Source of the DNA: Actinomycetes bacterium
GTDB lineage: Bacteria > Actinomycetota > Acidimicrobiia > Spongiisociales > UBA5794
NCBI GenBank assembly: GCA_024275815.1
Contig: JAJRYI010000104.1
Span: forward strand, 1 to 28,196
Length of the DNA stretch: 28,196 bases
Direction: 5' to 3'
The notes beneath the pieces were generated by a model. It was not told the DNA's origin, searched no databases, and was given only the letters and a program-made list of their open reading frames with translations. This document shows positions 3 through 17,697 of this stretch, one piece after another. The position numbers and the translations under genes are program-made. The number at the start of each line of letters is the position of its first letter. Within the stretch, counting starts at the first letter, position 1.

Positions 3-329
3 GGACAAGAGCAGGGGTATCGCGATCTCGGATTCGAGCCGGTGACACACCCGGGCGGTGATGCCTGGGCCCGGTTCTCCCAACGGGCAGCCGAAGCGGT
101 TCAGGCTCTCGACCTCGCAGGTCGTGCCGGTGACGCCCGCGCTTTCGGCAACGGTGAAGTCGAAGCACCCGACGGCCTGCATCGTGTGGGTGAACCCGAC
201 CCTGCGAACAGGTTGATCTCGATACTCGACACGGCCCTCGCCGGGTCAGAGTGGGGAGATCTCGTCACCACCGTTCAGTCACTCGACATCGACATGGAGA
301 CCGTATCTGTCGGGACACCGGCACCATGA
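3..329 (+). CDS. 5'-partial NuoD/49-kDa-like (group 4 hydrogenase large-subunit-related) protein, C-terminal part only
   Basis: Frame is open from base 3 to TGA 327-329. YRDLGFEPVTHPGGDAWARFSQRAAEAVQALDL...VEAPDG...LAGSEWGDLVTTVQSLD aligns by eye with NuoD of this window ([37 protein letters not shown]...VEGPRG...SDSLIADLIAALASTD). The stop overlaps the next start (ATGA). Confidence 0.6.
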   Translation, partial: GQEQGYRDLGFEPVTHPGGDAWARFSQRAAEAVQALDLAGRAGDARAFGNGEVEAPDGLHRVGEPDPANRLISILDTALAGSEWGDLVTTVQSLDIDMETVSVGTPAP

Positions 330-1231
330 CGACCCTGAGCATCCTCGTCCAGGTGGCCGCCCTGCTCACCGGCGGCGCCTACGTCCTGGTGGTGACGGAC
401 CGCCTGATGAGCAGCACGGGCGGCGTACGCTCGGCCCTCGTCTACCCCGTCAGGCGGCTGTCGTTCCTCCTCCTGCAGCCAGCAACGACGACCGAGCGGC
501 CAGATTTCGAGGCGTGGATCCTCGGTCCGGCGTTGCTCATGGCGCTCGCAGCGGTGGGTGCAGTGGCGATCCCCGTCGCAGGACCATCGGCAGGCGGCGA
601 TATCCATGCCGGACTCGTGCTCTTCGGCGCTGCGATGCTCATCGTGCTCGTCGCGGTGTTCATCTTCGGATGGGGGCCGAACTCGGTGTTCCCGATGATC
701 GGTGGATACCGGATGGCTGCCATGGTCCTCTCCGTGGGTATCCCCTTCTCCCTGGTCGTACTCACCACAGCCATCCCGGCCGAGTCGTTGTCGGTCGGGA
801 TGATCGTCGAGGCACAGTCCAGTCTGTGGTTCGTGGTGGTCCAACCGCTCGGGCTGCCCATCTACCTCGTCACGGCAGCCGCGATCGCCTTCTGGGGCCC
901 GTTCGACCTTCCTGAGGGTGCCGATCTCGCCGGCGGTGTCGTCGCTGAAGCGTCCGGCCTGAGACTGGCGATGTGGAGATTCGCACGTGCAGCGTTGCTG
1001 GTGACCCTGTCACTGATGGGCCAAGCCGTCTTCCTCGGCGGCTACCTCGGGCCGATTCTCCCCGGTTGGGCGTGGACGATCGTAAAGACGCTGGTGCTTC
1101 TGGTACTCCTGGCGCTGGCAGGGCGAACGATGGCGCGGATGCGCGTTCAGACGTTCGTCTGGTTCGGGTGGGTCGTGCTCCTGCCCCTGGCGCTGGTCGA
1201 CGTGTTCGTCTCTGGTTGGTTGGCGCTATGA
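326..1231 (+). CDS. nuoH: NuoH-like membrane subunit (divergent paralog)
   Basis: Multi-TM protein with NuoH remnants (GW..NS.FPMIGGYR, PFDLPE, GGYLGP, WTIVKT, ARMR). True start is taken as ATG 326, which overlaps the upstream stop, rather than the ORF start at 251. Confidence 0.8.
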   Translation: MTTLSILVQVAALLTGGAYVLVVTDRLMSSTGGVRSALVYPVRRLSFLLLQPATTTERPDFEAWILGPALLMALAAVGAVAIPVAGPSAGGDIHAGLVLFGAAMLIVLVAVFIFGWGPNSVFPMIGGYRMAAMVLSVGIPFSLVVLTTAIPAESLSVGMIVEAQSSLWFVVVQPLGLPIYLVTAAAIAFWGPFDLPEGADLAGGVVAEASGLRLAMWRFARAALLVTLSLMGQAVFLGGYLGPILPGWAWTIVKTLVLLVLLALAGRTMARMRVQTFVWFGWVVLLPLALVDVFVSGWLAL

Positions 1232-1794
1232 ACCCCGGGCCCCTGTCCTACTTCCTCGTATCGGCGTTCGGTGTCGGAGCCGTGGTCTCGGGCTGGCTGG
1301 TGTTTCGCACGGACTCCATGCTGCGAGCCGCTTACTGGCTCATGGTCTCGTTCGTAGCGGTCGGAGCCATGCTGATCGTCCTCGATGCCCAGTTCCTCGG
1401 GCTGATCCTCATCCTCATGATGTCGGGGGAGATGACGATCATGGCGATCTTCATGATCCTGTTCATGATGAACCCTGCAGGGTTGAACCCGATGACCATG
1501 GTTCACCAGCACCGGACATCGATCATCGCGGGCGTGGGATCCTTCGTCGTCCTCGCCTTCGTCGGAGTCGTTGCCGAGTTCCCGGACCGCCCGGTACCAG
1601 CAGGCGACGCAACGGTCGCGCTCGGCGAGGAGTTGCTCGGACGCTCGATGCTCGTCTTCGAGTCGGCCGGCGTGGCGCTCCTGGCCGTCATGATCGGAGC
1701 CATCGCCCTGGCGGCGAAGCAGGGCCGTTTCGGCGATGCATATGACGGATCACAGGAGCCGAGCATCGACGTCGAGACGGAGGACCGATCATGA
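1228..1794 (+). CDS. nuoJ: NuoJ-like membrane subunit (divergent paralog)
   Basis: ATGA-coupled start at 1228. About 5 TM helices, C-terminal LGEELLGRSMLVFESAGVALLAVMIGAIALA typical of NuoJ, located between H-like and K-like genes. Confidence 0.8.
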   Translation: MNPGPLSYFLVSAFGVGAVVSGWLVFRTDSMLRAAYWLMVSFVAVGAMLIVLDAQFLGLILILMMSGEMTIMAIFMILFMMNPAGLNPMTMVHQHRTSIIAGVGSFVVLAFVGVVAEFPDRPVPAGDATVALGEELLGRSMLVFESAGVALLAVMIGAIALAAKQGRFGDAYDGSQEPSIDVETEDRS

Positions 1795-2093
1795 TCGACA
1801 TCCTCCTCGTCGTTGGAGCCGCCATCTTCGGAATCGGGGTGTACGGAGCTCTCAGCCAGCAGTCCTTCGTGATGATCATGATGGGCCTCGAGCTGATGCT
1901 CAACGCCGCGCTACTCGTGGCGATCACGTTCTGGTGGGCATCGACCGGCGGGAACCCCGCAGGCCAGCTGCTGGTGATCGTGATCCTCGCGGTGATGGCC
2001 ATCGAGGCGGCCATAGGGTTCGCTCTGGTGACGGCGGTGTACCGGTCCCGAAAGGCCGACATCACCGAGAAGCTCAAGAAGCTGCGTAACTGA
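1791..2093 (+). CDS. nuoK: NuoK-like subunit (paralog)
   Basis: 100 aa, 3 TM, MGLELMLN and MAIEAAIGFAL with both conserved Glu. GGAGG upstream and ATGA overlap. Confidence 0.9.
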   Translation: MIDILLVVGAAIFGIGVYGALSQQSFVMIMMGLELMLNAALLVAITFWWASTGGNPAGQLLVIVILAVMAIEAAIGFALVTAVYRSRKADITEKLKKLRN

Positions 2094-4006
2094 TGGTCTG
2101 GCTTCCCGTACTCACGCCGCTGATCGGAGGTGCCATCATCCTGGCACTCAGGCGGAGCCAGATGGCGGCAAGAGTCGCGTCCGTCCTCGTGATGGTGGCC
2201 ACCGTGGCCGCAGCGGCCTTGGTCGCCTCGCTCGAGGCTACGGGTACCTGGTCGTGGGGTGGGCAGTTGGACCTCGCTGTGTCGGTCACAGGGTTCGGTC
2301 GAACGATGGTGGTCCTGGTCCCGGTGATCGCCACCGCTGTGATCGGATTCGCCGCGACCAACTCGGAGGATGATCGATCCATCGTCAAGTTGCTGGTGGC
2401 GCTGACCTGGTTCGTGGCAGCCATGGAGCTTCTCGTGATAGCCGCCGACTTCCTCACACTGCTCATCGGATGGGAGCTGGTCGGAGCCGCGTCGTGGGTG
2501 CTGATCGGACACGAGTGGCGCGACCCGCAGCGTCCCCGATCAGCCCGAGAGGCCTTCGTCACGACTCGCTTCGGTGACCTCGGCATATACGTGGCAGCCG
2601 GCGCCATCTTCGCTGCAACCGGGAGCCTTCGCTACGACGACCTGGCAGCGGTGTCCCCGGGTTGGCTCGCGATCATCGCTGGTGGCCTGGTACTGGCAGC
2701 GGCGGCGAAGTCGGCACAGGTCCCGTTCTCACCGTGGTTGTTCTCGGCCATGGCCGGTCCGACGCCTGTGTCGGCTCTCTTGCACTCCGCAACGATGGTC
2801 GCTGCAGGTGCCTACATCCTCATCCGCCTCCAGCCAACCCTGTCAGCGGTGGGTTGGTTCTCCCCGGTGGTGATCGGGATCGGTCTCACGACGGCACTCG
2901 CCGGCGGGATGGTCACCCTGGCTCAGCAGGACCTCAAGAAGGCTCTCGCAGGCTCGACGTCTGCACAGTACGGACTGATGCTGATCGCCGTTGGGGCGGG
3001 CTTCACCGCAGCCGCCGCAGGACAGCTCACAGCGCACGCCCTCTTCAAGTCCCTGCTGTTCCTCACAGCAGGTGTCGCTCTTCACGCGAGCGGAACACTC
3101 GATCTGTCCAAGCTACGACTCGGGAGCGCTCTGCCTCGGGTAGCGGTGCTCTTCGGCATCGGGGCGCTGGCACTTGCTGCGGTGCCACCGCTCGGAGCGG
3201 CTTTCACCAAGGAAGCGGTACTCGCCGGAGCGTTCCATGCCGGCATATGGGTGGGTCTGGGGACGGCGGCAGCCGGACTGCTCAGTACCCTGTACGCAGC
3301 GAGGCTCCACATGCTTGCCTACGGGCCAGGGCCCACCAGGGACGTCCATACACCGCCACGACGCGGTGAGATGGTGGCTCTCGGGGGACTCGCTGCCCTG
3401 ACACTCTTGCTCGGGGTGCTGTGGCTCCCCGGTGGGGACGCCATCTTGGAACGTGCGGCAGAAGGAGCGATCCTGTCACCGACACGAGCCGAGACGATCC
3501 TGTCGTTGGCCCTCGTCGTGGTCGGACTCACCGCGGTAGCCGTCGCGTGGCGACGCGGCCGACTCGTGACCCTTGGCATGCCGGCTCGAACTCGTGCGTT
3601 CATCGCAGGATGGTGGGGGATCCCAACGGCGGCAAGGGTACTCATCGTCGACCCCGTGTCCCGTCTGGGGAAGTGGCTCTTCATTGCAGACCGCAACGTC
3701 CTGGCACGAATCGCCGACTCGGTTGCGGCCTTCGCCGAGTACACGTCACGCGTCCTCAAGCGGTTGGTCGAGCGAGGGATCGATGGCGTGGTCTGGGGCA
3801 TCGGCGGGGCCACGATTCAAGGTGCAGAGATGTCGAGATTGGCAGACGACCGGGGTGTGGACGGGACAGTTGAAGGTGTCGCGTCCGGTATCGGCGAGGC
3901 GGGAAAGCAGAGCCGCAGGACGCAGACCGGGATGTCCTACCACTACTACACAGCGATGATGATCGGACTCGTGGTGGCGATCGCAGTCGCCACCCTCTGG
4001 AGGTAA
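2093..4006 (+). CDS. nuoL: NuoL-like antiporter subunit (paralog)
   Basis: GWELVG, AFVTTRFGD, AAKSAQVPF.PWL..AM.GPTPVSALLHSATMVAAG, AHALFKSLLF, C-terminal lateral helix plus final TM. TGATG overlap with nuoK. Confidence 0.9.
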   Translation: MVWLPVLTPLIGGAIILALRRSQMAARVASVLVMVATVAAAALVASLEATGTWSWGGQLDLAVSVTGFGRTMVVLVPVIATAVIGFAATNSEDDRSIVKLLVALTWFVAAMELLVIAADFLTLLIGWELVGAASWVLIGHEWRDPQRPRSAREAFVTTRFGDLGIYVAAGAIFAATGSLRYDDLAAVSPGWLAIIAGGLVLAAAAKSAQVPFSPWLFSAMAGPTPVSALLHSATMVAAGAYILIRLQPTLSAVGWFSPVVIGIGLTTALAGGMVTLAQQDLKKALAGSTSAQYGLMLIAVGAGFTAAAAGQLTAHALFKSLLFLTAGVALHASGTLDLSKLRLGSALPRVAVLFGIGALALAAVPPLGAAFTKEAVLAGAFHAGIWVGLGTAAAGLLSTLYAARLHMLAYGPGPTRDVHTPPRRGEMVALGGLAALTLLLGVLWLPGGDAILERAAEGAILSPTRAETILSLALVVVGLTAVAVAWRRGRLVTLGMPARTRAFIAGWWGIPTAARVLIVDPVSRLGKWLFIADRNVLARIADSVAAFAEYTSRVLKRLVERGIDGVVWGIGGATIQGAEMSRLADDRGVDGTVEGVASGIGEAGKQSRRTQTGMSYHYYTAMMIGLVVAIAVATLWR

Positions 4007-4011
4007 TACGG

Positions 4012-5493
4012 ATGTTGACATTGGCTATCGTCGTTCCACTCGTGGTGGCTGCGGTCACCCTGGCGATCCCGAAGCGGCATGAGCATCTCGCGCGCCCTCT
4101 GGCGATCGTCACGAGCTTCCTCCCGCTCGTCGTGGTAGCCATCTCGTGGGCACGCTTCGATTTCTCGACCGGGTTCCAACTGGTGGAGTCGGCGCAGTGG
4201 ATCCCCTCACTCGGGATCTCCTACACGGTGGGGGTCGACGGGCTGTCGCTCCCCCTCGTCGCACTCACTGCCTTGCTGTTCACGGTGTCGATGGTCTTCC
4301 CCTTCGACGTCCTCGGCAAGCCCCGGGCGTACTTTGCAACGTTCCTGTTCCTCGAGGCGATCTCGCTCGGCGTGTTCCTATCGCTCGACCTGATCCTCTT
4401 CTTCGTTTTCTGGGACCTCAGCCTCGTCGGCATGTACTTCCTCATCGGTATCTGGGGTCACGGAGAGGACGCCAAGCGATCGGCCCTCAAGTTCTTCCTC
4501 TACACCCTGCTCGGTTCACTGGCGTTGCTCCTCGGCATCCTCGGCATCTACCTCTACACGGACCCGCGAACCTTCAGCATGATCGAGATCATCGACAAGC
4601 TCCCTGTACCTGCCGGCGGATTGGCCGCCACCTTGATCTTCGTCGCGGTGGGTATCGGGTTTGCGGTCAAGACACCGCTCGTGCCACTCCACACATGGCT
4701 CCCCCCTGCCCATGTCGATGCACCTGCTCCCGCATCCACCATCCTTGCAGGTGTCCTCCTCAAGATGGGAACCTACGGCTTCATCCGGATCTCCCTCCAG
4801 ATGCTGCCCGAGACCTTCCAGCGTTTCGCTCTGCCTCTGGCGATCCTCGCCGTCGTGAGCATCCTCTACGGTGCGCTCGTCGCGATGGCACAGACGAACC
4901 TCAAACGCCTCGTCGCCTACACCAGCGTCAATCACATGGGGTACGTGATCCTCGGCGTCGCAGCAGCAGGGGCGATCGGCCTCGGCAGCGAGGCGTCGCG
5001 CTCGATCGCGATGACCGGCGCGGTCGTCGAGATGGTGGCACATGGGCTGATCACCGGAGCCCTGTTCCTTCTGTCGGGATCGATCTACGCGAGGGGAAAG
5101 ACGTACGAACTCGACCAGTACGGAGGCCTGGCGGGGGCATCTCCGCGCCTGTCGGGGATCATGATGTTGGCAGCGTTCGCGAGCCTCGGGCTACCCGGGC
5201 TGGCAGGCTTCGTCGCCGAGTTCCAGATCTTCGCAGGAACACTGGGAGTGTTCCCCTGGCTCGCCGCGATCGGCCTCCTTGGCATCGTGATCACGGCAGC
5301 GCTGTTCCTTCGCATGATCCAGCAGCTCTTCTTCGGCGATCTCCCGGCCCGCTGGGGTGACTGGAAGGACCTTAAGCGAGCCGAGCTGTACGCACTCGTA
5401 CCCCTGGCGGCACTCGTGGTCGTGATCGGCGTGGTGCCGCAGTGGCTGATCCGGGTCATCGATACGTTCTCCCAGATGGTGGCACGAGGCTGA
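4012..5493 (+). CDS. nuoM: NuoM-like antiporter subunit (paralog)
   Basis: VGVDGLS, AVKTPLVPLHTWLPPAH, AGVLLKMGTYG, AYTSVNHMG, MVAHG, SLGLPGLAGFVAEF. GGAGG upstream of ATG 4012. Confidence 0.9.
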   Translation: MLTLAIVVPLVVAAVTLAIPKRHEHLARPLAIVTSFLPLVVVAISWARFDFSTGFQLVESAQWIPSLGISYTVGVDGLSLPLVALTALLFTVSMVFPFDVLGKPRAYFATFLFLEAISLGVFLSLDLILFFVFWDLSLVGMYFLIGIWGHGEDAKRSALKFFLYTLLGSLALLLGILGIYLYTDPRTFSMIEIIDKLPVPAGGLAATLIFVAVGIGFAVKTPLVPLHTWLPPAHVDAPAPASTILAGVLLKMGTYGFIRISLQMLPETFQRFALPLAILAVVSILYGALVAMAQTNLKRLVAYTSVNHMGYVILGVAAAGAIGLGSEASRSIAMTGAVVEMVAHGLITGALFLLSGSIYARGKTYELDQYGGLAGASPRLSGIMMLAAFASLGLPGLAGFVAEFQIFAGTLGVFPWLAAIGLLGIVITAALFLRMIQQLFFGDLPARWGDWKDLKRAELYALVPLAALVVVIGVVPQWLIRVIDTFSQMVARG

Positions 5494-5526
5494 CATGAGC
5501 CCGACCTCGACTCGAGAGACCCTCCG

Positions 5527-6954
5527 ATGACCGAAGCCATGGGTCAGGCTGCCATCGATATCCTCCCCGTCCTGATCCTGGCCGGGGGAGCCATCCTGCT
5601 GATCTTCTACGCCATGTTCGTTTCGCGGGCGTTGCAGGTGTGGTCCGCGCTCGGTGCGATGATCGTGCTCGCTGCTGCGGGTTTCGCCGCCGGCTGGTAC
5701 CTCGGGGACGCGCCGGACGTCACTTTCTTCGGGACGTTCGCAGCCGATCGGGCGTGGCTGTGGGGGACGCTCATCATCATCGTCGTTACAGCACTGACCG
5801 TCGCGCTCTCGGTCGAGTGGTTCCAGTCGGATTCTCGCCATGGCGAGTACTACGTGCTCCTCCTGCTCTCTGGACTGGGAGCCGTGCTGCTAGCAGGGGC
5901 GATCGACCTGATGGAACTGGTCGTCGCGATGCTCCTTTCCTCCGTCACCGGGTTCGCTCTGGCCGCCTACCACCGCAAGTCGCGAGCCGCCACAGAGGCA
6001 GGGATCAAGTACTACCTCATCGGTGCCCTGGCGAACGGAGCGATGGTGTACGGGGTTGCACTGTTGTTCGGTCTGGCGGGTGGAACCTCCTTCGAGGATC
6101 TTCGTACAGGTCTCGTGGATGCCGATCCGTTGGCCCTCATCGTCGGCTTCGCCATGGTCGCCATCGGTATCGCTTTCAAGTTGGGGTCCGTCCCCGCTCA
6201 TCAATGGATGCCCGATGTGGCCCAGGGGGCGCCCGCACCTGTAGCTGCCTTCTTGCTCGTTGCAGGAAAGGTCGGAGCACTGATCGTCTTGATGCGGCTC
6301 GTGATGGTTCTCCCCGAGTCGGGTGTGGGATGGCGACCGTTGATCGCGGTGATCGCTGCAGTCACGATGACCCTCGGCAACCTGGCCGCACTGTGGCAGG
6401 ACGACGTTCGGAGAATGCTCGGGTGGTCATCCGTGTCACAAACCGGATACGGCCTCCTGGCGGTCGTCGCGATCGGTCGCAGCGATATCGCCGTTTCGTC
6501 GATGCTCTTCTTCCTCGCCGCTTACGCGATGGGGAACATGGCAGCGTTCGGCGTGATCGTGAAACTGCGTGGGCTCACTTCCAGGGAGTCGTTTCGTGGC
6601 CTTGCAACACCCCATCCGTGGTTGATGGGAGCACTCGTCGTGAGCTTCCTCTCCTTCATCGGCATTCCCCCGCTCGGTGGCTTCACGGCGAAGCTCTTAC
6701 TGATGGGCGCCGTCATCGATTCTGGCTACGCCTGGCTCGCCGTACTCACCGTGATCAACTCGGCGATCTCACTGTTCTACTACGCCAGGGTGATGGGCCC
6801 TGCGTACTTCGACGACGCCGCCGAACCTCGACCGCTGATGGGCAGCTTGGCGTCGTGGGCGTTGGGCATCGCGACCGTCGCCGTCATCGCCATCGGTGTC
6901 GCAGCACAGCCCCTGGCAGCCGCGTGGCAGGCACTCGTGCTCCTCACCGGGTGA
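5527..6954 (+). CDS. nuoN: NuoN-like antiporter subunit (paralog)
   Basis: EAGIKYYLIGA, AFKLGSVPAHQWMPDVAQGAP, RMLGWSSVSQTGY, SFIGIPPLGGFTAK, NSAISLFYY. Confidence 0.9.
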   Translation: MTEAMGQAAIDILPVLILAGGAILLIFYAMFVSRALQVWSALGAMIVLAAAGFAAGWYLGDAPDVTFFGTFAADRAWLWGTLIIIVVTALTVALSVEWFQSDSRHGEYYVLLLLSGLGAVLLAGAIDLMELVVAMLLSSVTGFALAAYHRKSRAATEAGIKYYLIGALANGAMVYGVALLFGLAGGTSFEDLRTGLVDADPLALIVGFAMVAIGIAFKLGSVPAHQWMPDVAQGAPAPVAAFLLVAGKVGALIVLMRLVMVLPESGVGWRPLIAVIAAVTMTLGNLAALWQDDVRRMLGWSSVSQTGYGLLAVVAIGRSDIAVSSMLFFLAAYAMGNMAAFGVIVKLRGLTSRESFRGLATPHPWLMGALVVSFLSFIGIPPLGGFTAKLLLMGAVIDSGYAWLAVLTVINSAISLFYYARVMGPAYFDDAAEPRPLMGSLASWALGIATVAVIAIGVAAQPLAAAWQALVLLTG

Positions 6955-7554: not shown

Positions 7555-7590
7555 TGACCTGTACCGATGCCGGTTCGCAAAGGAGAATCC

Positions 7591-8589
7591 GTGAAACGCC
7601 TCGCTGTGCTCGCTCTCGTGGTCGCTGTGACAGCGGTCGCCTGTTCCGCTGGGGGTGGCGGCGACGGACTGACGTTGTACTCGGGAAGGTCCGAAGACCT
7701 GGTCCAGCCTCTCATCGACCGGTTCACCGAGGAAACGGGCATCGAGGTCACGGTCAAGTACGCGGGTTCCGCCGACCTCGCCGCGACGCTCAGTGAGGAA
7801 GGCACCGGGTCTCCTGCAGACGTCTTCTTCGCTCAGGATCCGGCATCTCTCGGAACGGTGGCGCTCGCCGGTCTCCTCTCCCCGTTGCCGACCGATGTTC
7901 TTTCGAAGGTCCCGGAACGCTTCTCTGATTCCCAGGGACGATGGGTGGGGACCTCGGGGCGTGCCAGGGTCGTCGTATACGACTCGACCGCCATCGACCC
8001 GGGTGATCTGCCCGAGACGGAGGACGGGTTCACCGACCCACAATGGCGTGGCCGCGTCGGTATCGCCCCGACCAACGGATCCTTCCTCTCGTTCGTATCG
8101 GCCAAGATCCTCGTCGACGGCGAGGACGCCACGCTTCGTTGGCTCGAGGGGATGGCGAACAACGCCTCACCGACGTTCCCGAAGAACTCTGCGATCGTGG
8201 CTGCCGTCAACGATGGACAGATCGAGGTGGGCCTCGTGAACCACTACTACCTGCTGCGGGCACTCGCTGAGTCTCCCGACCTTCCCGGAGCCAACTACTT
8301 CTTCGAGGTCGCAACCCCGGGCTCTCTCGTGATGCCGGCCGGCGTTGGGATCCTCGCCTCCTCGGACAAGCAGGAGTCGGCGAAGAAGTTCGTCGAGTTC
8401 CTTCTCAGCGATGAGTCCCAGTCCTACTTCGCCACCGAGACGTTCGAGTATCCGCTCGTCCCCGACATACCTGCCAGCGAGCTGCTCCCACCCCTCGAGA
8501 CGATCCCGACACCCGATGTCGACCTCTCGATGCTGGCAACAGTTCTCGACACCGCTACCGATCTCGTCGCCCAAGCCGGACTCCTGTGA
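7591..8589 (+). CDS. fbpA: Fe3+ ABC transporter substrate-binding lipoprotein (FbpA/FutA/SfuA family)
   Basis: GTG start after AGGAG, lipobox AVAC, LYSGRSE, ADVFFAQD, GLVNHYY (tandem Tyr iron ligands), FEYPL. Confidence 0.85.
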   Translation: MKRLAVLALVVAVTAVACSAGGGGDGLTLYSGRSEDLVQPLIDRFTEETGIEVTVKYAGSADLAATLSEEGTGSPADVFFAQDPASLGTVALAGLLSPLPTDVLSKVPERFSDSQGRWVGTSGRARVVVYDSTAIDPGDLPETEDGFTDPQWRGRVGIAPTNGSFLSFVSAKILVDGEDATLRWLEGMANNASPTFPKNSAIVAAVNDGQIEVGLVNHYYLLRALAESPDLPGANYFFEVATPGSLVMPAGVGILASSDKQESAKKFVEFLLSDESQSYFATETFEYPLVPDIPASELLPPLETIPTPDVDLSMLATVLDTATDLVAQAGLL

Positions 8590-10223
8590 CAGACCCGGCG
8601 TCCGTCGTTGACGTCGAGCTCATCGCCGGGACTCCGGGGGCGGCTCCAGGAGGCGTATCGGACGCCGGACGATCGGCTCCCTGGTGGCTCTGGGTCGGTG
8701 CCCTCACCGTGCTCCTCCCCGTGGGTCTTCCCGTTCTGTTCCTGTTCCTGCGAGCGGCAGGGGCAACAGATGCCGCCTGGGATACGCTCATGTCGATTCG
8801 CACGGTGCAGTTGGTCGCAAGGAGTTTCCTTCTCACCGCTGTCGTGACGGCATCGGCGACGGCAGTCGGGGTCACGGGGGCGTGGCTGCTCGCACGCACC
8901 GACCTCTCCTTCAAGCGAGTGTGGGGGATCGTCTTCGCCATGCCTCTCGTCGTACCGTCCTACGTGTTGGCGATGGTGTTCATCTCTGCGACCGGCCCCC
9001 GGGGCCTGTTCGCCGATATGACAGGCATCACCCTCCCCCACCTCATCGGTCTCCCGGGTGCATGGCTCGCGTTGACGATCACCACCTACCCCTACGTCTA
9101 TCTCATCACGGCCGCAGCCATCCGCAAGATCGACCCCGCCCTCGAGGAGGCCGCCCGCGGTCTCGGTGCAACACCGACCCGGGTGTTCCGAACCGTGATC
9201 CTTCCCCAACTTCGCCCGGCGATCGGGGCGGGTGCGCTGCTGGCCGCCTTGTACACGCTGTCGGACTTCGGAGCCGTCTCTCTCATGCGATTCGATGCTT
9301 TCACCCGCGTCATCTACGCCCAGTACTCCGGTCGCCTGGATCGCACACCGGCGATCGTCCTGTCGATCGTGCTCATCCTCATCGCCTCGGTCATCATCTG
9401 GGGTGAGCAGCGCACACGCGGGAAGGGCAAGTACTTCTCGCGGTCGGTGACACGCCCCCCGACGCTGTACCGGCTCACCGGGCCGCAACGCATCGCAGCG
9501 ACATCGGCCATGGCGATCGTCGCCGGGATAGGGGCGATCATCCCGGTCGCCGTGCTCGTGTCGTGGGTCGTGCGTGGCGTGCGAGCCGGCTCCGACACTT
9601 CGGTCTCATGGAGCGCCGTTGGTGGATCGCTGACCGCGGGCACGATCGCAGCCGCACTCGCAATGGCCGCAGCGATCCCGATCGTCATTCTCGCTGTCCG
9701 GTTCGCGTCCCGTTCGACCCGCTGGCTCGAACGCGGCGTGTTCGGCCTCTTCTCGCTCCCCCACATCACGATCGCCATCGCCGTCGTCGCCTTCACCGTT
9801 CGCTACACACGGCCCGTGTACCAGTCGCTCCTGGTACTCGGACTCGTGTACGCAGCGATGTTCCTGGCACAAGCGACATCAGCAGCAAAGGCCGCGTTGA
9901 TCCAGGTCAACCCTGCCCTCGAAGACGCCTCTCGGTCCCTCGGACGGGGCCCGATCGCTACCTACGTGAAGGTGACGTTCCCCCTCATGGCGAAGGGGTT
10001 GCTCGCCGGTGGAGCACTCGTCTTCGTGACGACACTCAAGGAACTCCCCGCCACGCTGCTTCTGAGCCCTCCGGGGTTCACGACGCTTGCCGTAAGAATC
10101 TGGGCTGCCGCAGACGAACTCCTCTACACGAGGGCGGCAGCATCCGCTCTGCTCCTCATCGCCGTTTCGATCGTTCCGGTCTACTACCTTTCGATCAAAC
10201 CAAAGGACGCCCTCGACACATGA
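8586..10223 (+). CDS. fbpB: Fe3+ ABC transporter permease (FbpB/SfuB family)
   Basis: Duplicated permease with two EAA loops (ALEEAARGLG, ALEDASRSLG), SDFGA and LKELPATLLL motifs. GTGA overlap with fbpA. Confidence 0.85.
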   Translation: MTDPASVVDVELIAGTPGAAPGGVSDAGRSAPWWLWVGALTVLLPVGLPVLFLFLRAAGATDAAWDTLMSIRTVQLVARSFLLTAVVTASATAVGVTGAWLLARTDLSFKRVWGIVFAMPLVVPSYVLAMVFISATGPRGLFADMTGITLPHLIGLPGAWLALTITTYPYVYLITAAAIRKIDPALEEAARGLGATPTRVFRTVILPQLRPAIGAGALLAALYTLSDFGAVSLMRFDAFTRVIYAQYSGRLDRTPAIVLSIVLILIASVIIWGEQRTRGKGKYFSRSVTRPPTLYRLTGPQRIAATSAMAIVAGIGAIIPVAVLVSWVVRGVRAGSDTSVSWSAVGGSLTAGTIAAALAMAAAIPIVILAVRFASRSTRWLERGVFGLFSLPHITIAIAVVAFTVRYTRPVYQSLLVLGLVYAAMFLAQATSAAKAALIQVNPALEDASRSLGRGPIATYVKVTFPLMAKGLLAGGALVFVTTLKELPATLLLSPPGFTTLAVRIWAAADELLYTRAAASALLLIAVSIVPVYYLSIKPKDALDT

Positions 10224-11239
10224 ACGATCCCCTGATATCGGTGGAGAACGTCTCCGTCTCGTACGGTGACGCAGGTGCCCTCGATGACTTCTCACTCGAT
10301 GTGGCCCAGGGGTCACTCGTGGCGCTCGTTGGGCCGTCTGGATGTGGCAAGACCACAGCACTGCGCGTCATCGCCGGGTTCCAGCACCCCGATGAGGGAA
10401 AGGTGACGATCCACGGAACCGTCGTCGTCGGCAACGGAAAGGACGTGCCGCCCGAGAAGCGCAACGTCGGCATGGTGTTCCAGGAGTACGCCCTCTTCCC
10501 ACACATCTCGGTCGCAGAAAACGTCGGGTACGGCGTGCGCGGCGCAGACCGGATTCAACGGGTTCATGACGTCCTCAAGCTCGTCGGCCTCGAGCATCAC
10601 GGCTCACGGTTCCCCCACGAGCTCTCAGGTGGCGAACAGCAGCGGGTCGCTCTCGCCCGAGCACTTGCTCCACAACCCGACGTCGTCCTTCTCGACGAGC
10701 CCTTCTCGAACCTCGACGCTCCACAGCGCGAACGTATGCGCAGAGAACTCCGCAAGATCCTCAAGGGAGCCGGGGCTACGGCGGTGTTCGTGACACACGA
10801 CCAAGCCGAGGCTCTCGCGATCGCAGACGTGATCGCGATCATGCGTGACGGGAGGATCGTGCAGTTCGGCATCCCGGACGATGTGTACGCCGAGCCTGTC
10901 GATCCGTGGGTCGCCCGATTCCTCGGCGATGCCATCCTGCTGTCCGGTGTGGTCCAGGATGGACATGTCGCAACGATCCTCGGCAGCATCGATACCCGGC
11001 TGCCTGCAGGGTCGCATACAGACGTCATGATCCGTCCCGAGTGGATCTCGCCGCGGATCGATCCCGATGGCCGTGGCAAGGTCGTCGACCGGGAGTTCTA
11101 CGGGCACGATCAACGTGTCGAGATCGAGTTGCCCGGTGGTGAACGTATCGAAGCGCTCGTGCCGACCGCGAACCGGATGACGGTCGGCGACCGCGTCGAC
11201 CTCGAGATCGTGGACGCCATCGTGTGGGAGAAGAAGTAG
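10220..11239 (+). CDS. fbpC: Fe3+ ABC transporter ATP-binding subunit (FbpC/SfuC family)
   Basis: Walker A GPSGCGKT, signature LSGGEQQR, Walker B LLDEPF, H-loop VTHD, C-terminal TOBE-like region. ATG 10220 overlaps the permease stop. Confidence 0.88.
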   Translation: MNDPLISVENVSVSYGDAGALDDFSLDVAQGSLVALVGPSGCGKTTALRVIAGFQHPDEGKVTIHGTVVVGNGKDVPPEKRNVGMVFQEYALFPHISVAENVGYGVRGADRIQRVHDVLKLVGLEHHGSRFPHELSGGEQQRVALARALAPQPDVVLLDEPFSNLDAPQRERMRRELRKILKGAGATAVFVTHDQAEALAIADVIAIMRDGRIVQFGIPDDVYAEPVDPWVARFLGDAILLSGVVQDGHVATILGSIDTRLPAGSHTDVMIRPEWISPRIDPDGRGKVVDREFYGHDQRVEIELPGGERIEALVPTANRMTVGDRVDLEIVDAIVWEKK

Positions 11240-11339: not shown

Positions 11340-12791
11340 CTAGTTGCCCGGCAGGCCCCAGGTGTCGGTAGGTGACGTGGGACCACCGTCGGGCTCGTCA
11401 TCCGGGTGAGGCTCGTCCGCCTGTTCGGGTTCGTCGCTGGGCGGCTCGGTCGTGCCACTGGAGAAGCTGATGTCGTCTGGCAGCGGGGATGCATCGTCCA
11501 TCTGTTCGTCTTCTTCGTCCTCCGCCTCGACTGGCTCTGCAGCAACCTCCGGTTCCGCCTGCGGAGCGAGTGGGGGCTCCCAGTCGGGGGGGACGGTCGG
11601 GGCAACGATCAGGCTCTCCGGAAGGAGTGCAACCGGCACCGGGTCTGCCCGCCGTGTGGCGATTGCACCGAGGACCCAGGCGCCGGTGCCCCACACGAGA
11701 CCGATCACGTAGACGACTCCGCCAACGACCGGGATGAGCCAGATACCGAGACGCCAGATGACTGCACCAACGAGGAAGGCCCCGAAGAGTCCGCCTCGTT
11801 TGAGCAGGATCCGGTTGCCGAGCACCGTCACCGCGGGTATCGGGCCGATGATGAACAGTGCAATACCGACGAGCACCAGGAGCACCGCGAGCGGAATGCC
11901 GACGAGCGTGACGGCGAGGAGGGCGACACCCGCCGGCAACACGACGACCGTCACGAATCCGATGAGGAGTGACCGTATCGGGCGGGTCACGAGCGCAGCG
12001 GCTGCCCGCGTGCTCGAGCCCCGCAACACGGTGAGCACGACGATGCCGGCAACGAGGAAGCCGAAGAAGCCGATGACGTTGGCTAGGGCAAGGATGATCC
12101 CGTAGACGAAGTTGCTCTGGGTTGGGAGGCGGGTCGTCGTTCCACCGATGGCCGCGGTCGACGCTATCCCTGCTTCGACGGGGGAGCGGTACAGGACGTC
12201 ACCCTCGATCATCGCCGTGGGTCCAAGCTCGAGTTTCTGCGTCGCCACATCGAGATCTCCCCCGACGGTGCCATCGACGACGAGTCGCATCGTTCGTCCG
12301 CGGACGTCGCGTTCGACGACGCCCTCGATCCGCCCCGTCCCCGCGAAGATCATCGCATCCCTGCCGATGATTCCGGACGGCGTCACGACGACCGATGGGG
12401 CCGTGAGGAACACGTCGTCACCGACCTGCCCGCCGATCGTGGCGCTCACGGCGGTGCCTCGTAGTGATCCATCTATTCGACCGGTCGGTTCGACGACGAC
12501 GGATCCAGAGGAGAACACGGTCACCGTCCCCGTCACCGTCCCAGAGATCGTCAGGTCACCGGTGAAGATCACGAGGTCACCGTCGATGACACCGTCGATC
12601 TTGCCGGACATGGACGTGACGTAGACGTCCTCATCGACCGGATCGTCCTTACTGACGATGAACAGGTCGGTCGTGACGAGAGACGCGAACGTCGTGATCG
12701 ACGGGATCACGACGGCGAACACACCGATCAGCGCCAGAGCGAGATGTCTGGCTCTCGGGGATGGATTCTGATCAGAAAGGAAGTGCGTCAC
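11340..12791 (-). CDS. Bactofilin-like (polymer-forming cytoskeletal-type) beta-helix membrane protein with acidic Pro-rich tail
   Basis: N-terminal hydrophobic segment, about 8 imperfect G-x-(I/V)-x-G-D-(V/L) repeats, a multi-TM block and an acidic P/E/D-rich C-terminus. The start (GTG 12791) is uncertain and overlaps the nuoN stop. Confidence 0.6.
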   Translation of the reverse strand: MTHFLSDQNPSPRARHLALALIGVFAVVIPSITTFASLVTTDLFIVSKDDPVDEDVYVTSMSGKIDGVIDGDLVIFTGDLTISGTVTGTVTVFSSGSVVVEPTGRIDGSLRGTAVSATIGGQVGDDVFLTAPSVVVTPSGIIGRDAMIFAGTGRIEGVVERDVRGRTMRLVVDGTVGGDLDVATQKLELGPTAMIEGDVLYRSPVEAGIASTAAIGGTTTRLPTQSNFVYGIILALANVIGFFGFLVAGIVVLTVLRGSSTRAAAALVTRPIRSLLIGFVTVVVLPAGVALLAVTLVGIPLAVLLVLVGIALFIIGPIPAVTVLGNRILLKRGGLFGAFLVGAVIWRLGIWLIPVVGGVVYVIGLVWGTGAWVLGAIATRRADPVPVALLPESLIVAPTVPPDWEPPLAPQAEPEVAAEPVEAEDEEDEQMDDASPLPDDISFSSGTTEPPSDEPEQADEPHPDDEPDGGPTSPTDTWGLPGN

Positions 12792-14250
12792 GTACCACGT
12801 CTATGAGGATCCATGGCACGATACCGAAAACAACCGTGATCGTGGCGCTGATCACGACGGCGAACCTCGTCGAGAGACTCGGCTCGAGAACCTCTCCGGC
12901 ATCACCATCGCTCGCGAACACCGTCGCGACAACCTTGAGGTAGAAGGCAAGACCGATGACGGTAGTCAGTGTTCCCAGGATCACGAGCCATATGTACCCG
13001 ACACTGCCGGCAGCGATGAACGCGAGGACCTTGCCGACGAACCCGGCGAAGAAGGGCATCCCCGACATCCCGAACATCAGGATCGCCAACAGCCACCCGA
13101 GTTCGGGAGACCTGCGCACCAGGCCCTTGTAATCGGACATGGGTGCAGACGTCGACCCGGGGCCCGACACAGCCGACACGATGGCGAACGTCCCGACGAT
13201 CATGAACGCATAGGTCGAGACGTAGAACCACATACCGGGGATAGCGTCTGCCCCGGCGAGCAAGGCCGTGAGTAGGTACCCGGCCTGGGCGACACCCGAG
13301 TACGCAAGGAGTCGTCTCATGTCGGTCTGGACCAGGGCCATGGTGGTACCGATCACCATGGAGACGGCAGCGATGACGGCCACGATGGGGCCCCATGCAT
13401 CGATCTGGGAGAGCAACCCACCGATGAAGATGCGCCCGAAGGCGGCGAATCCTGCCACCTTGACACCGGCAGCCATCAACCCGACCGCTCCGCTTGGAGC
13501 ACCCTGATAGACGTCGGGAGCCCATTGGTGGAACGGTGCAGCCGAGATCTTGAAGAAGAGGCCGATCAACATGAGTGCCATACCGACCAGCAGGATGCCT
13601 GGCTCGGTGATGAGGTTCAGGGAGAAGAAGTACCTGATCGAGTTCGCCCCATAGATCGTCAGCGACCCCGTTGCTCCGAACGTCAAGGCTACGCCGTAGA
13701 GGAAGAGGGCAGAGGCGAGGCTGCCGAGCATGAAGTACTTGAGCGACGACTCTTCTGCGTTGATGTCGTCCCGTACGAACCCGGCGAGTATGTAGAAGCT
13801 GATCGAGGCGGTTTCGAGGCCCACGAAGATGACGAGGAGGTTCGGGCTCGCGACCATCATGTGGAGACCGGCGAACGCCAGGAGGGACAGCGTCACGAAC
13901 TCTGCCGAACGCTTCCCGATCTTGGTGACGAGATCCCATGATCCGAGGAACCCGGTGAATCCAACGAGGCCGAGAACGATCGCTGCGAAGGCTGAGTACC
14001 CATCCATGACGACCATCGGTGACTTCGTGATCTCGAGTCCGGGGGCAGAGAAGAACATCCCTCCACCGCCGTCGGCAACATCCATCCATTGGAGCACACC
14101 CACCGCACCAGCGAGCAGGAACGTGAAACCTGCCACCGGGCCCCACACCTTGCGGTTTCGATCCATCACGACCGCGACCATGAGCACCGTCAAGGCACCA
14201 ACGATCAACACGATCTCGAAGGCAACAGGAAGCCATGCTGCGTTCTGCAT
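12772..14250 (-). CDS. nuoN: NADH-quinone oxidoreductase subunit N
   Basis: IFVGLE, ESSLKYFMLGS, FKISAAPFHQWAPDVYQGAP, RLLAYSGVAQAGY, GMPFFAGFVGK. Last gene of the canonical operon. Confidence 0.93.
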   Translation of the reverse strand: MQNAAWLPVAFEIVLIVGALTVLMVAVVMDRNRKVWGPVAGFTFLLAGAVGVLQWMDVADGGGGMFFSAPGLEITKSPMVVMDGYSAFAAIVLGLVGFTGFLGSWDLVTKIGKRSAEFVTLSLLAFAGLHMMVASPNLLVIFVGLETASISFYILAGFVRDDINAEESSLKYFMLGSLASALFLYGVALTFGATGSLTIYGANSIRYFFSLNLITEPGILLVGMALMLIGLFFKISAAPFHQWAPDVYQGAPSGAVGLMAAGVKVAGFAAFGRIFIGGLLSQIDAWGPIVAVIAAVSMVIGTTMALVQTDMRRLLAYSGVAQAGYLLTALLAGADAIPGMWFYVSTYAFMIVGTFAIVSAVSGPGSTSAPMSDYKGLVRRSPELGWLLAILMFGMSGMPFFAGFVGKVLAFIAAGSVGYIWLVILGTLTTVIGLAFYLKVVATVFASDGDAGEVLEPSLSTRFAVVISATITVVFGIVPWILIDVVRDALPF

Positions 14251-15821
14251 CAGCCCTCACCTCCCTCGTGCTCGCCGGTATCGACAACGCCGTACTCGGG
14301 CACGATCACATCACCGGGCCGAGAGAACTCGGGAGCCTCGTACTGGGTGACCGCTTCGATCCGGTCGAGAACCAGCTCGATCGACGGTTCGATACGATCG
14401 AACACCGGCTTCGGATACACCCCGATGCCGAGGATGAGGACGATGAGCGGAACCATGATCAGGATCTCCCGAAAGTTGAGGTCGCGCAGCGCCTCGACCT
14501 TGGGGTTGACCTCACCGGTGAAGACGCGTTCGTACGCCCAGAGCAGGTAGATCGCAGCGAGGATCACCCCGGTTGCAGAGATGATCGCCAACACCGGGAG
14601 GGTGAAGTACGAACCCATGAGGATCGTGAACTCGCCGACGAAGCCCGACAGGCCGGGAAGACCGGCAGAAGCGAAGGCGGAGAAGAGGAAGATCCCTGCA
14701 AAGACGGGCATCACCTTGGCCAGGCCGCCGTAGTCCGCGATCTTCCTCGTGTGTGTCCGATCGTACACCATGCCGACGAGGAGGAACAGGGCGCCCGTCG
14801 TGAGGCCGTGGCTGATCATCTGGAACACCGAGCCCTACATCGCCTGGCTGGTGAGCGCGAAGATACCGAGGACGATGAAACCCATGTGCGACACCGACGA
14901 GTACGCGATGAGTCGCTTGAGGTCGGGCTGGACGATCGCCAACGCAGCACCGTAGATGATGCCTATGACACCGAGCAACGCGAGCCAGAACCCGAACTCG
15001 ACCGTCGCCTCGGGGAACAGGGACAGGTTGAAGCGCAACAAGCCGTAGGTGCCCATCTTGAGCAACACACCGGCAAGGATCACTGATCCAGCCGTCGGTG
15101 CCTCGGTGTGGGCATCAGGCAGCCACGTGTGGAACGGGAACAGCGGGACCTTGATGGCGAACGCTATGGCGAACCCGAAGAACAAGAACGTCTCCGTCGT
15201 ACGGGTGAACTCCACTCCGAGCATGTCGCGGAAGTCGAACGACGCGAGGGCGCCGACACTGTCTCCGGTGATGATGCCGAGGGCGATGATGGATGCGAGG
15301 AGGAACGCCGACCCGAAGGCTGTGAAGAGAACGAACTTCATCGAGGCGTACACCCTGTTCTCCGAACCCCACATTGCAATGAGCAGGTACATCGGGATGA
15401 GCACGATCTCGAAGAATGCGAAGAACACGAGCAGGTCGAGTGCGAGGAACACTCCGAGCACCCCGGTCTCGAGGATCAACATCAGCACCATGTACGTCTT
15501 GATCTTGTCCGTCACCGATCGCGACGCTGCGATCGATATCGGGAACAGCAGGGCCGTCAAGGCGACCATGAACAGCGAGATGCCGTCTACCCCCACACGC
15601 CATCCGAAACCGATGGTCGTGCTGAACGTCACGTTCTCCGCGAACTGGAAGCTGGCGTCTCCAACGGCGAAGTTCCACAGGATGTACCCGGCGACCACGA
15701 GAGGCATGAGCGACACGACGATCGCCAGTGGGTAGATCAGTTCCTGTCTCCGCTTGGGGACGAGGCCCACGATGAGCGCACCGAGCAGGGGCAGCGCGAT
15801 GAGGATGGCCAGAACGGGCAT
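14250..15821 (-). pseudogene. nuoM: NADH-quinone oxidoreductase subunit M interrupted by one in-frame TAG (codon 329, 14835-14837); apparent pseudogene, read-through gene or base error
   Basis: ORFs 14835-15821 and 14250-14828 share a frame: FALTSQAM*GSVFQMISHGLTTGALF. Joined length is 523 codons with all NuoM motifs (FFEIVLIP, IKVPLFPFHTWLP, LLKMGTYG, GFVGEF). TGATG overlaps at both ends. Confidence 0.9.
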
Positions 15822-17695: not shown

Positions 17696-17697
17696 CG

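What the first reader, a model, noticed from the sequence alone, without database searches (positions are those of the whole stretch)
3..6954. Second, divergent complex I-like machine (D-like/H/J/K/L/M/N, no NuoI) that looks rewired away from quinone chemistry
Seen: a mostly overlap-coupled cluster of complex I membrane-arm homologs lies in the same window as a full nuoA-N operon. nuoH abuts nuoJ through an ATGA overlap, so no nuoI sits at its usual place. The antiporter subunits keep their central Lys residues, while the NuoD-like and NuoH-like subunits are degenerate. Established: complex I, Mrp antiporters, group 4 hydrogenases/Ehr and DabAB reuse these modules for different energy-coupled jobs. 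Inference: this is a distinct, possibly uncharacterised ion- or metal-translocating complex rather than a spare NADH dehydrogenase. The upstream genes lie outside the window.
Basis: partly seen in the sequence, partly recalled or inferred. Interest (0 to 1): 0.78.

Follow-up and report, generated by a model that had tools for sequence, protein, structure and literature searches.

The report
Redox-dead complex I relative, metal-linked
The window opens inside a conserved nine-gene operon derived from respiratory complex I that has lost every electron-carrying part but kept its proton-pumping membrane arm. The operon always begins with a small metal-binding protein, so it most likely uses the proton gradient to move a metal ion (probably copper) rather than to respire.

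Summary
Observation confirmed. Window 3-6954 holds the C-terminus of a NuoD-like protein followed by intact nuoH, J, K, L, M and N paralogs, with no nuoI, beside a full nuoA-N operon.

The missing start lies on another contig of the same MAG (C288) and in a same-genus genome. It consists of a YHS-domain gene, a nuoA-like gene and a ~426-aa NuoB~NuoD fusion. There is no nuoC, I, E, F or G.

- **No redox parts.** The fusion has none of the four N2 cluster cysteines in 79 of 79 family members. It has also lost the quinone-binding His/Tyr region.
- **Conserved operon.** The order YHS-A-BD-H-J-K-L-M-N recurs in all 80 retrieved loci, from Actinomycetota, Chloroflexota, Gemmatimonadota and others. 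A YHS gene lies just upstream in 69 of 69 testable loci.
- **Under selection.** dN/dS is 0.06-0.15.
- **Pump residues kept.** The L/M/N Lys/Glu/His chain, the NuoK glutamates and the NuoA Asp/Glu are retained.
- **New methionines.** NuoJ, A and K carry family-specific invariant methionines next to the E-channel residues.
- **Metal neighbours.** 33 of 80 loci carry copper or heavy-metal resistance genes nearby.

Best reading: a proton-driven soft-metal exporter, most likely Cu(I), built on a complex I chassis. It is uncharacterised. The scan reached the same reading on other genomes. Published work mentions only a 'partial NDH-1 operon' in Salinispora and Kocuria.

The parts
3..329 (+). C-terminal ~107 residues of the fused NuoB~NuoD-like cap protein (xBD). 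Residues 1-313 lie on contig C288 of the same MAG (C288:2-940, minus), with about 6 codons missing in the gap.
   Evidence: Weak Pfam Complex1_49kDa hit. 72% identity to residues 320-425 of the 426-aa G007 ortholog. The N-terminal part was found on C288.
326..1231 (+). xH, a NuoH/ND1-like subunit (301 aa). Its start overlaps the xBD stop (ATGA).
   Evidence: Pfam NADHdh 3.4e-43. Best PDB hits are all complex I NuoH/ND1/NdhA. It falls in a single clade with orthologs from other phyla. Residue comparison.
1228..1794 (+). xJ, a NuoJ/ND6-like subunit (188 aa) with a methionine-rich TM3 and a family-specific Glu.
   Evidence: Pfam Oxidored_q3. 13 invariant Met, 12 of them family-specific. E. coli Y59 is replaced by Met in 61 of 62 members.
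1791..2093 (+). xK, a NuoK/ND4L-like subunit (100 aa).
   Evidence: Pfam Oxidored_q2. E36 and E72 are invariant, R25 R26 are replaced by Q Q, and there are extra invariant Met.
2093..4006 (+). xL, a NuoL-like antiporter-type subunit (637 aa).
   Evidence: Pfam Proton_antipo_M. The best NCBIfam hit is NuoL, not MrpA or HyfB. E144, K229, H338, K342 and K399 are invariant.
4012..5493 (+). xM, a NuoM-like antiporter-type subunit (493 aa).
   Evidence: NCBIfam TIGR01972 NDH_I_M scores 501 bits, above its cut-off. K234, H241, K265, H322, H348 and E407 are invariant, and E144 is replaced by D.
5527..6954 (+). xN, a NuoN-like antiporter-type subunit (475 aa), last gene of the operon.
   Evidence: NCBIfam NDH_I_N scores 327 bits, just under its cut-off. 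E154, K158, K217, H224, K247 and K395 are kept. The TM5 Glu (E133) is replaced by Leu/Met/Val.

Best explanation
The cluster is the 3' part of a self-contained nine-gene operon (YHS-domain protein, NuoA-like, NuoB~NuoD fusion, NuoH, J, K, L, M and N-like). The operon descends from true complex I but carries no redox cofactor site. Shown here: it has no N2 cluster ligands, no quinone His/Tyr, and no NuoC, I, E, F or G. Its proton-translocation residues are intact. It is conserved and under purifying selection in several phyla. It always starts with a cytoplasmic YHS/TRASH metal-binding protein. Inferred: the complex works like an Mrp-type antiporter. Protons flow inward through the three antiporter-like subunits L, M and N. 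That flow drives outward movement of a soft metal cation, most likely Cu(I). The YHS protein would hand the metal to the former quinone cavity, which is closed by the B~D cap and by the conserved loops of xH and xA. From there the metal would leave along the former E-channel, where xA, xJ and xK carry family-specific invariant methionines.
For: - **Architecture.** A same-genus genome and contig C288 of the same MAG show YHS, xA and xBD directly upstream of the window genes.
- **Cofactor loss.** No alignment column of 79 xBD proteins has more than 7.5% Cys. The positions of E. coli NuoB C63, C64 and C129 are non-Cys, and the C158 segment is deleted. The NuoD 'HPSTHG' loop is replaced by 'FPxFPPG', and the segment where canonical NuoD carries its quinone-ligand Tyr is shortened by roughly half.
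- **Fold and docking.** The AF2 model has pLDDT 83.6. Its top Foldseek hits are complex I 49-kDa subunits. A profile of the family hits both NuoB and NuoD chains in the PDB. The xH+xA+xBD model scores 0.82 against a best control of 0.55; that mark was reached by 58 of 80 solved complexes and 2 of 110 mismatched pairs. The invariant xBD residues lie in the predicted interface.
- **Conservation.** The gene order is the same in 80 loci from four or more phyla, and every ORF is closest to its X-type paralog. There are 367 clusters at 50% identity with E<=1e-30. dN/dS is 0.06-0.15.
- **Pump residues.**
- **Metal link.** A YHS ORF lies on the same strand within 400 nt of xA in 69 of 69 loci, and Pfam YHS scores above its cut-off. 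X-type members have 13 invariant Met in xJ, 6 in xA and 5 in xK, and nearly all are non-Met in the three Nuo references compared. Neighbours include a copper-resistance multicopper oxidase, CsoR/RicR-like repressors, cupredoxins, P1B ATPases, CusA/CzcA RND pumps, MerR and CopY/BlaI regulators, in 33 of 80 loci. ESM Atlas holds an xBD-like cluster fused to a heavy-metal-binding domain.
Against: - No experiment or transcript bears on it.
- In the window's own genus no metal-resistance gene lies nearby. There the operon sits between two other nuo operons and an ABC transporter.
- The neighbouring P1B ATPase scores best as the Cd/Zn type, and the RND and MerR neighbours are not copper-specific. 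The metal's identity is therefore open.
- YHS/TRASH domains can bind other metals or serve structural roles.
- That the methionines line one pathway follows from their sequence positions next to E-channel residues, not from a structure of the membrane arm.
- The direction of transport is not addressed by any result.
- dS is near saturation, so the dN/dS values are rough.
Confidence: 0.55

Rival explanations
1. It is an Mrp-like monovalent cation (Na+ or K+)/proton antiporter built from complex I parts, used for pH or salt homeostasis. The YHS protein and the methionines would have only a regulatory or structural role. This is close to the published reading of 'partial NDH-1 operons' as marine-adaptation genes.
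For: - All proton-path residues of L, M, N and K are kept.
- No redox site remains.
- MnhG (an Mrp marker) was not found in the five relatives that carry the operon.
- Papers on Salinispora and Kocuria propose Na+/H+ pumping for a nuoA-hypothetical-nuoHJKLMN operon (PMC3314556 and PMC6002675).
- From my own knowledge: deactive mitochondrial complex I has been reported to act as a Na+/H+ antiporter.
Against: - It does not explain the invariant YHS first gene, the family-specific methionines or the copper/heavy-metal neighbours.
- MnhG was also missing from 28 of the 36 relatives without the operon, so there is no complementarity.
- Loci come from soil, groundwater and freshwater MAGs as well as marine ones.
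Confidence: 0.2
2. It is a proton-driven metal importer or a membrane-bound metal sensor/insertase that supplies copper to cuproenzymes, rather than an exporter.
For: It shares the metal-linked evidence: the YHS gene, the methionines, and the cupredoxin and multicopper-oxidase neighbours. In the window's genus it sits among respiratory operons.
Against: - The associated regulators (CsoR/RicR-like, CopY/BlaI, MerR) and partners (P1B ATPase, HME-RND, CopA-type oxidase) are typical of detoxification.
- The YHS protein has no evident signal peptide, which fits cytoplasmic hand-over for export.
Confidence: 0.12
3. It is still a redox enzyme that borrows electron-input subunits encoded elsewhere, for example from one of the two other nuo operons, and reduces quinone or another acceptor.
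For: Three complex I-like operons lie side by side in this genus. Every one of the 5 checked genomes with the operon also has a canonical NuoH.
Against: - The N2 ligands and the quinone-site His/Tyr are absent in all members.
- NuoC and NuoI are never in the operon.
- Outside this genus the operon is not next to other nuo genes.
Confidence: 0.05
4. It is a decaying, non-functional duplicate of the nuo operon.
For: Pfam and NCBIfam scores are low for the H-, J- and D-like parts.
Against: - All ORFs are intact and full-length against their orthologs.
- dN/dS is 0.06-0.15.
- There are dozens of invariant family-specific residues.
- Gene order is conserved in 80 loci of several phyla.
Confidence: 0.01

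Closest known systems
Respiratory complex I / NDH-1 (NuoA-N)
   Same: It has homologs of NuoA, B, D, H, J, K, L, M and N in complex I order. Each of L, M and N is closest to its own Nuo family. xH groups with NuoH and not with HycD. The proton-pump residues are kept.
   Different: It has no NuoC, I, E, F or G. B and D are fused, shortened and lack the N2 ligands and the quinone His/Tyr. The E-channel subunits are relined with methionines. A YHS gene leads the operon.
Mrp (Mnh/Pha) multisubunit cation/proton antiporter
   Same: It is a redox-free, multi-subunit machine of the complex I superfamily, presumed to exchange protons for another cation. This is the best functional analogy.
   Different: It has no MrpB, E, F or G. 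It keeps NuoH, NuoA and a cytoplasmic B~D cap that Mrp lacks. Its L, M and N score far higher against Nuo models than against Mrp models. The proposed substrate is a soft metal rather than Na+.
Ehr (energy-converting hydrogenase-related) complexes and group 4 [NiFe] hydrogenases (Mbh, Hyc/Hyf, Mbx/Mbs)
   Same: The large-subunit homolog lacks catalytic metal ligands. Its function is unknown, and coupling to ion translocation is presumed (PMC6349859).
   Different: As described, Ehr is expected to need an electron donor and carries hydrogenase-type subunits. Here the small-subunit homolog has no Fe-S ligands. The membrane arm is the full complex I set (A, H, J, K and distinct L, M, N). In the tree xH lies within Nuo, far from E. 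coli HycD.
'NDH-1 partial 2' operon of Salinispora, Kocuria flava S43 and sponge Streptomyces (Penn & Jensen 2012; Sun et al. 2018)
   Same: The published gene content is nuoA, a hypothetical protein and nuoH, J, K, L, M, N, with no peripheral-arm genes. It was read as horizontally acquired.
   Different: The papers read it as a Na+/H+-pumping marine-adaptation trait. They did not note the B~D fusion, the loss of cofactor sites, a YHS gene or a metal link. I could not test sequence orthology to the present family, because only metagenome proteins came back.
Copper exporters with cytoplasmic chaperones (CopZ-CopA P1B ATPases; the CusCFBA methionine relay)
   Same: The proposed logic is the same: a small cytoplasmic Cys-containing metal-binding protein, a methionine-lined membrane path, and occurrence in copper-resistance islands.
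   Different: There is no sequence or fold relationship. The energy source would be the proton gradient acting through complex I-type antiporter modules.

Membership tests
Respiratory complex I (NDH-1) | NuoB with four Cys ligands of Fe-S cluster N2 | tested here: not met
   An alignment of the xBD N-domains with E. coli and canonical NuoB shows no Cys at the C63, C64 or C129 positions, and the C158 segment is deleted. No column exceeds 7.5% Cys in 79 sequences.
Respiratory complex I (NDH-1) | NuoD quinone-site His (beta1-beta2 loop) and Tyr | tested here: not met
   The 'GPxHPSxHG' loop is replaced by 'GPWFPxFPPG'. The segment between the N-terminal sheet and the 'ELxRxxxHL' helix, where canonical NuoD has its Tyr, is cut to about half its length.
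Respiratory complex I (NDH-1) | NuoI (two 4Fe-4S clusters) and NuoC present | tested here: not met
   The H and J genes overlap. No I- or C-like ORF occurs in any of the 80 loci.
Respiratory complex I (NDH-1) | Seven membrane subunits A, H, J, K, L, M, N with conserved charged residues | tested here: met
   Pfam and NCBIfam assign every subunit. Residue table. Exceptions: NuoN E133 is replaced by Leu, NuoJ Y59 by Met, and NuoH E157 is variable.
Mrp antiporter | MrpB, E, F and G subunits in the operon | tested here: not met
   The operon holds only YHS and Nuo-type genes. Pfam MnhG was not found in the window's MAG (79.6% complete) or in G007, G009, G029 and G040.
Mrp antiporter | Antiporter subunits of MrpA/MrpD type | tested here: not met
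   xL, xM and xN score 307-501 bits against the NuoL/M/N models and 150-200 bits against the Mrp models.
Ehr / group 4 hydrogenase-related complexes | Descent from membrane-bound hydrogenase modules, with an Fe-S small subunit | tested here: not met
   xH lies inside the Nuo radiation, apart from E. coli HycD. PDB hits of xH are all complex I or NDH. The small-subunit part has no Fe-S ligands.
YHS/TRASH metal-binding domain proteins | Match to Pfam PF04945 above its cut-off, with the Cys-x(n)-Cys-x3-Cys pattern | tested here: met
   The G007 and L043 proteins score 47.6 and 68.5 bits against a cut-off of 30.3. The own-genome copy at C288:1306-1440 scores 48.5 bits. Three Cys are visible and in the cluster listing.
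'NDH-1 partial 2' operon (Salinispora/Kocuria) | Gene content nuoA-hypothetical-nuoHJKLMN, and sequence orthology | tested here: inconclusive
   Gene content matches the papers' descriptions. Sequences of those strains could not be retrieved, and one search returned only unnamed metagenome proteins.
Copper(I) exporter (functional class) | Metal-dependent transport or a resistance phenotype | not testable with these tools
   Only contextual evidence is available.

The most novel reading that the evidence does not exclude
A complex I chassis has been converted into a proton-gradient-driven exporter of Cu(I) or a similar thiophilic metal. A YHS metallochaperone would load the former quinone cavity, and the former E-channel, relined with methionines, would conduct the metal. 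This would be a transporter class with no characterised member and a new use of the complex I coupling mechanism.
Probability: 0.45. Interest if true: 0.9.

Novelty: new variant of a known kind. Interest (0 to 1): 0.8.

Why it matters
If this reading is right, the long-range coupling machinery of complex I can be driven by, or can drive, something other than quinone chemistry. That gives a natural 'redox-free' version of the enzyme for studying how events in the Q cavity and E-channel are linked to the antiporter modules. It would also add a new, widespread metal-resistance system. The family comprises about 370 clusters at 50% identity and was found in 139 species-level genomes of Actinomycetota, Chloroflexota, Gemmatimonadota and others. 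Genome annotation now labels these genes as NADH dehydrogenase subunits or hypothetical proteins, which inflates counts of 'complex I' in metabolic reconstructions of MAGs.

Tried and rejected
- **Conserved non-nuo neighbours at 110 aa or longer**. No family occurred in more than 10 loci. The universal YHS gene appeared only when short ORFs were included.
- **Mrp complementarity**. MnhG was found in 0 of 5 operon carriers and in 8 of 36 others, which is uninformative.
- **Literature searches** for a described YHS-nuo or cofactor-free complex I system. Nothing specific came up. PMC12361115 classifies complex I variants but not this one.
- **Named cultured carriers** through a second protein search. 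Only metagenome entries were returned.
- **Transcription evidence**. No RNA runs hold the sequence, and DNA holders share 11% or less of the sampled words.
- **Decaying-paralog idea.** Rejected.
- **Hydrogenase/Ehr origin.** Rejected.
- **eBC N-terminal row.** It is misaligned or taken from an over-long ORF and was ignored.
Full report
**What is in the window.** The window is an entire 28,196-base contig (C450) of a fragmented MAG: 2.1 Mb, 502 contigs, 79.6% complete. Named homologs place it in the Acidimicrobiia. ORF listing and Pfam give these genes on the + strand:
- an open-ended 108-aa NuoD-like C-terminus (3-329)
- NuoH-like (326-1231)
- NuoJ-like (1228-1794)
- NuoK-like (1791-2093)
- NuoL-like (2093-4006)
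- NuoM-like (4012-5493)
- NuoN-like (5527-6954)

The D/H and H/J junctions are ATGA overlaps, so no nuoI can sit between H and J. On the minus strand lies a full nuoA-N operon (12772-27457), flanked by a Rex-type regulator gene.

**The missing upstream part.** Among 40 relatives, orthologs of the H-like protein (58-82% identity) occur in only four genomes. All other NuoH matches are about 30% identical. In the same-genus genome G007 the region upstream of the H ortholog holds a 117-aa NuoA-like gene. Next comes a 426-aa protein whose N-terminus weakly matches NuoB and whose C-terminal half matches NuoD. Further upstream, on the opposite strand, is a third, 11-subunit-type nuo operon (A, B/C, D, H, I, J, K, L, M, N) with its own membrane genes.

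The window's own MAG has the same arrangement on contig C288, which ends where the window begins. It carries a YHS-domain gene (C288:1306-1440), the NuoA-like gene (934-1284) and residues 1-313 of the fusion (2-940). About six codons are missing in the gap between the contigs.

**The cap protein has no cofactor sites.** A profile of 20 family members hits NuoB/PSST chains with its residues 41-84 and NuoD/49-kDa/NdhH chains with its C-terminal half. The AlphaFold2 model is confident (mean pLDDT 83.6, pTM 0.84) except for an invariant glycine-rich linker at residues 129-156. Its best structural matches are complex I 49-kDa subunits.

In 79 family members no alignment column has more than 7.5% Cys. 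The positions of E. coli NuoB C63, C64 and C129 are non-Cys, and the segment that holds C158 is deleted. The NuoD beta1-beta2 loop 'HPSTHG' is replaced by 'FPxFPPG'. The stretch where canonical NuoD carries its quinone-ligand Tyr is about half as long.

A three-chain model of xH, xA and the cap scores 0.82 against a best control of 0.55. That mark was reached by 58 of 80 solved complexes and 2 of 110 mismatched pairs, and a pass for a family with solved relatives shows likeness rather than proof. The predicted interface contains the conserved loops of xH (TM1-2 and TM5-6), the xA TM1-2 loop, and most invariant residues of the cap.

**A coherent, selected family.** A scan of one genome per prokaryotic species found 139 genomes that encode the fusion protein. 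The 80 retrieved loci come from Acidimicrobiia and other Actinomycetota, Chloroflexota (Limnocylindria and others), Gemmatimonadota, and one MAG labelled Cyanobacteriota. All are MAGs. Every locus has the order A-BD-H-J-K-L-M-N. Every ORF is more similar to the cluster's own paralog than to the canonical or 11-subunit versions, and there are no C, I, E, F or G genes.

The exhaustive profile search gives 367 representatives at 50% identity with E<=1e-30. Against three close relatives, all seven window genes have dN/dS of 0.06-0.15, with dS near 1, so these values are rough.

NCBIfam assigns each subunit to its own Nuo family. L, M and N each go to NuoL, M and N rather than to Mrp or Hyf, mostly below the trusted cut-offs. 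In a NuoH tree rooted on E. coli HycD, the 28 cluster-type sequences form one clade (SH-aLRT 100) on a stem of 2.4 changes per site. That clade lies inside the Nuo radiation, next to the 14-subunit type with support 91, but the long branch makes the exact sister group unsure. The five carrier genomes checked also hold ordinary NuoH genes. This is an old, neofunctionalised offshoot of complex I. It is neither a hydrogenase relative nor a decaying copy.

**What is kept and what is changed in the membrane arm.** Alignment to E. coli subunits shows the following.

Kept:
- NuoL E144, K229, H338, K342, K399
- NuoM K234, H241, K265, H322, H348, E407, with E144 replaced by Asp
- NuoN E154, K158, K217, H224, K247, K395
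- NuoK E36, E72
- NuoA D79, E81
- NuoH R148, E228, R293

Changed, and fixed within the family:
- NuoN E133 is replaced by Leu/Met/Val.
- NuoK R25 R26 are replaced by Gln Gln.
- NuoJ Y59 is replaced by Met, with a new invariant Glu one turn later.
- NuoH E157 is variable, and the TM1-2 and TM5-6 loops are rewritten.
- The NuoA TM1-2 loop gains invariant His, Trp and Arg.

Family members carry 13 invariant Met in xJ, 6 in xA and 5 in xK. Nearly all are non-Met in E. coli and in the two other paralogs, and they lie next to the E-channel carboxylates in sequence. By contrast, L, M and N have fewer Met than their canonical counterparts.

**The metal link.** Clustering of flanking ORFs, once short ORFs were included, revealed a small gene just upstream of xA. 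It is a YHS domain protein (Pfam PF04945, above its cut-off) with three conserved Cys and no evident signal peptide. A family HMM finds it on the same strand within 400 nt of xA in 69 of 69 loci that have enough upstream DNA. It is the only YHS match in the window's MAG.

Beyond the operon no neighbour is universal. Recurrent neighbours are a copper-resistance multicopper oxidase (TIGR01480, 818 bits), CsoR/RicR-like repressors, cupredoxins, heavy-metal P1B ATPases (best subtype Cd/Zn), CusA/CzcA RND pumps, MerR-type and CopY/BlaI-type regulators and SHOCT proteins. At least one of these (SHOCT not counted) occurs in 33 of 80 loci, and in 16 of the 33 loci of 15 kb or longer. None occurs in the window's own genus. 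ESM Atlas also holds an xBD-like cluster in which 95% of members carry a heavy-metal-binding domain.

**Mechanism proposed.** Shown: the complex cannot carry out complex I redox chemistry, yet it keeps the parts that move protons. Inferred, by analogy with Mrp:
- Proton influx through L, M and N is coupled, through NuoK, NuoJ and NuoA, to expulsion of a second cation.
- The invariant YHS protein, the methionine relining of the E-channel subunits and the copper-island context point to Cu(I) or a similar soft metal.
- The metal would be delivered from the cytoplasm to the capped former quinone cavity.

Rivals are an ordinary Na+/K+-proton antiporter (the published reading of similar 'partial NDH-1' operons), a metal importer or sensor, a redox enzyme with borrowed subunits, and a dead paralog. 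The last two are contradicted.

**Novelty and earlier notes.** I found no paper that describes this architecture. Penn & Jensen 2012 (PMC3314556) and Sun et al. 2018 (PMC6002675) list a nuoA-hypothetical-nuoHJKLMN operon in Salinispora and Kocuria as a marine-adaptation trait. I could not test whether it is orthologous.

The scan's earlier follow-ups on other genomes reached the same reading, a cofactor-free, copper-linked complex I relative. I looked those up only after my own neighbourhood analysis.

**Unpublished genomes.** Two genomes flagged as unpublished contributed minor rows. G038 (locus L008) gave one row in the NuoH tree and one comparison. G042 (loci L070, L100 and L108) gave rows. 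No claim depends on them alone.

Noticed in passing
window 14835-14837 (minus strand, nuoM) and 18787-18789 (minus strand, nuoI): The canonical nuoM and nuoI each carry one in-frame TAG, and the reading frame continues after it. At these positions relatives have GAA (Glu) in NuoM (one relative, G007). In NuoI they have GAC, GAT or GAA (Asp/Glu; seven relatives). A Gln codon is therefore not the obvious ancestor. The cause could be real nonsense mutations, strain-mixture consensus errors or sequencing artefacts in the MAG.
   Followed up: partly
G000 contig C288 (L118) and G007:C3 (L014 5050-15247): This genus carries three complex I-like operons side by side: an 11-subunit type without E, F and G (with its own NuoI), the cofactor-free YHS-linked operon, and the 14-subunit nuoA-N. 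Many relatives have two NuoH genes about 20 kb apart.
   Followed up: partly
window 27566-28183 (+): A Rex-type redox-sensing regulator (Put_DNA-bind_N plus CoA_binding domains) is transcribed divergently from nuoA of the canonical operon.
   Followed up: no
window 11340-12791 (-): A 483-aa ORF with bactofilin repeats starts about 20 nt inside the 3' end of canonical nuoN.
   Followed up: no
window 7567-11239 (+): An ABC importer lies directly downstream of the cluster: a solute-binding protein (SBP_bac_8/6 type), a 545-aa permease ORF with two BPD_transp_1 matches, and an ATPase with a TOBE_2 domain. This neighbour is not conserved in other loci.
   Followed up: no
L112 (G041:C84:139312-140202): One Chloroflexota MAG that carries the operon also has a very divergent NuoH-like gene that branches next to E. 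coli HycD. It may belong to a group 4 hydrogenase or Ehr-type complex.
   Followed up: no
ESM Atlas clusters near P0003: Clusters resembling the NuoB~NuoD fusion exist in Pseudomonadota. One has a heavy-metal-binding domain (PF19335) in 95% of members, and another is automatically named 'Copper-translocating P-type ATPase'.
   Followed up: no
xBD residues 129-169 (G007 numbering; on C288 in this MAG): An invariant glycine-rich linker (W-R-G-x-G-P-Y-G-x-G-G-x-G-M-T-G-G-x-P-Y-G-R-P ... R-D-G-L-x-L-D) joins the B-like and D-like halves. It is disordered in the single-chain model, and its C-terminal end lies in the predicted interface with xH and xA. Its role is unexplained.
   Followed up: partly
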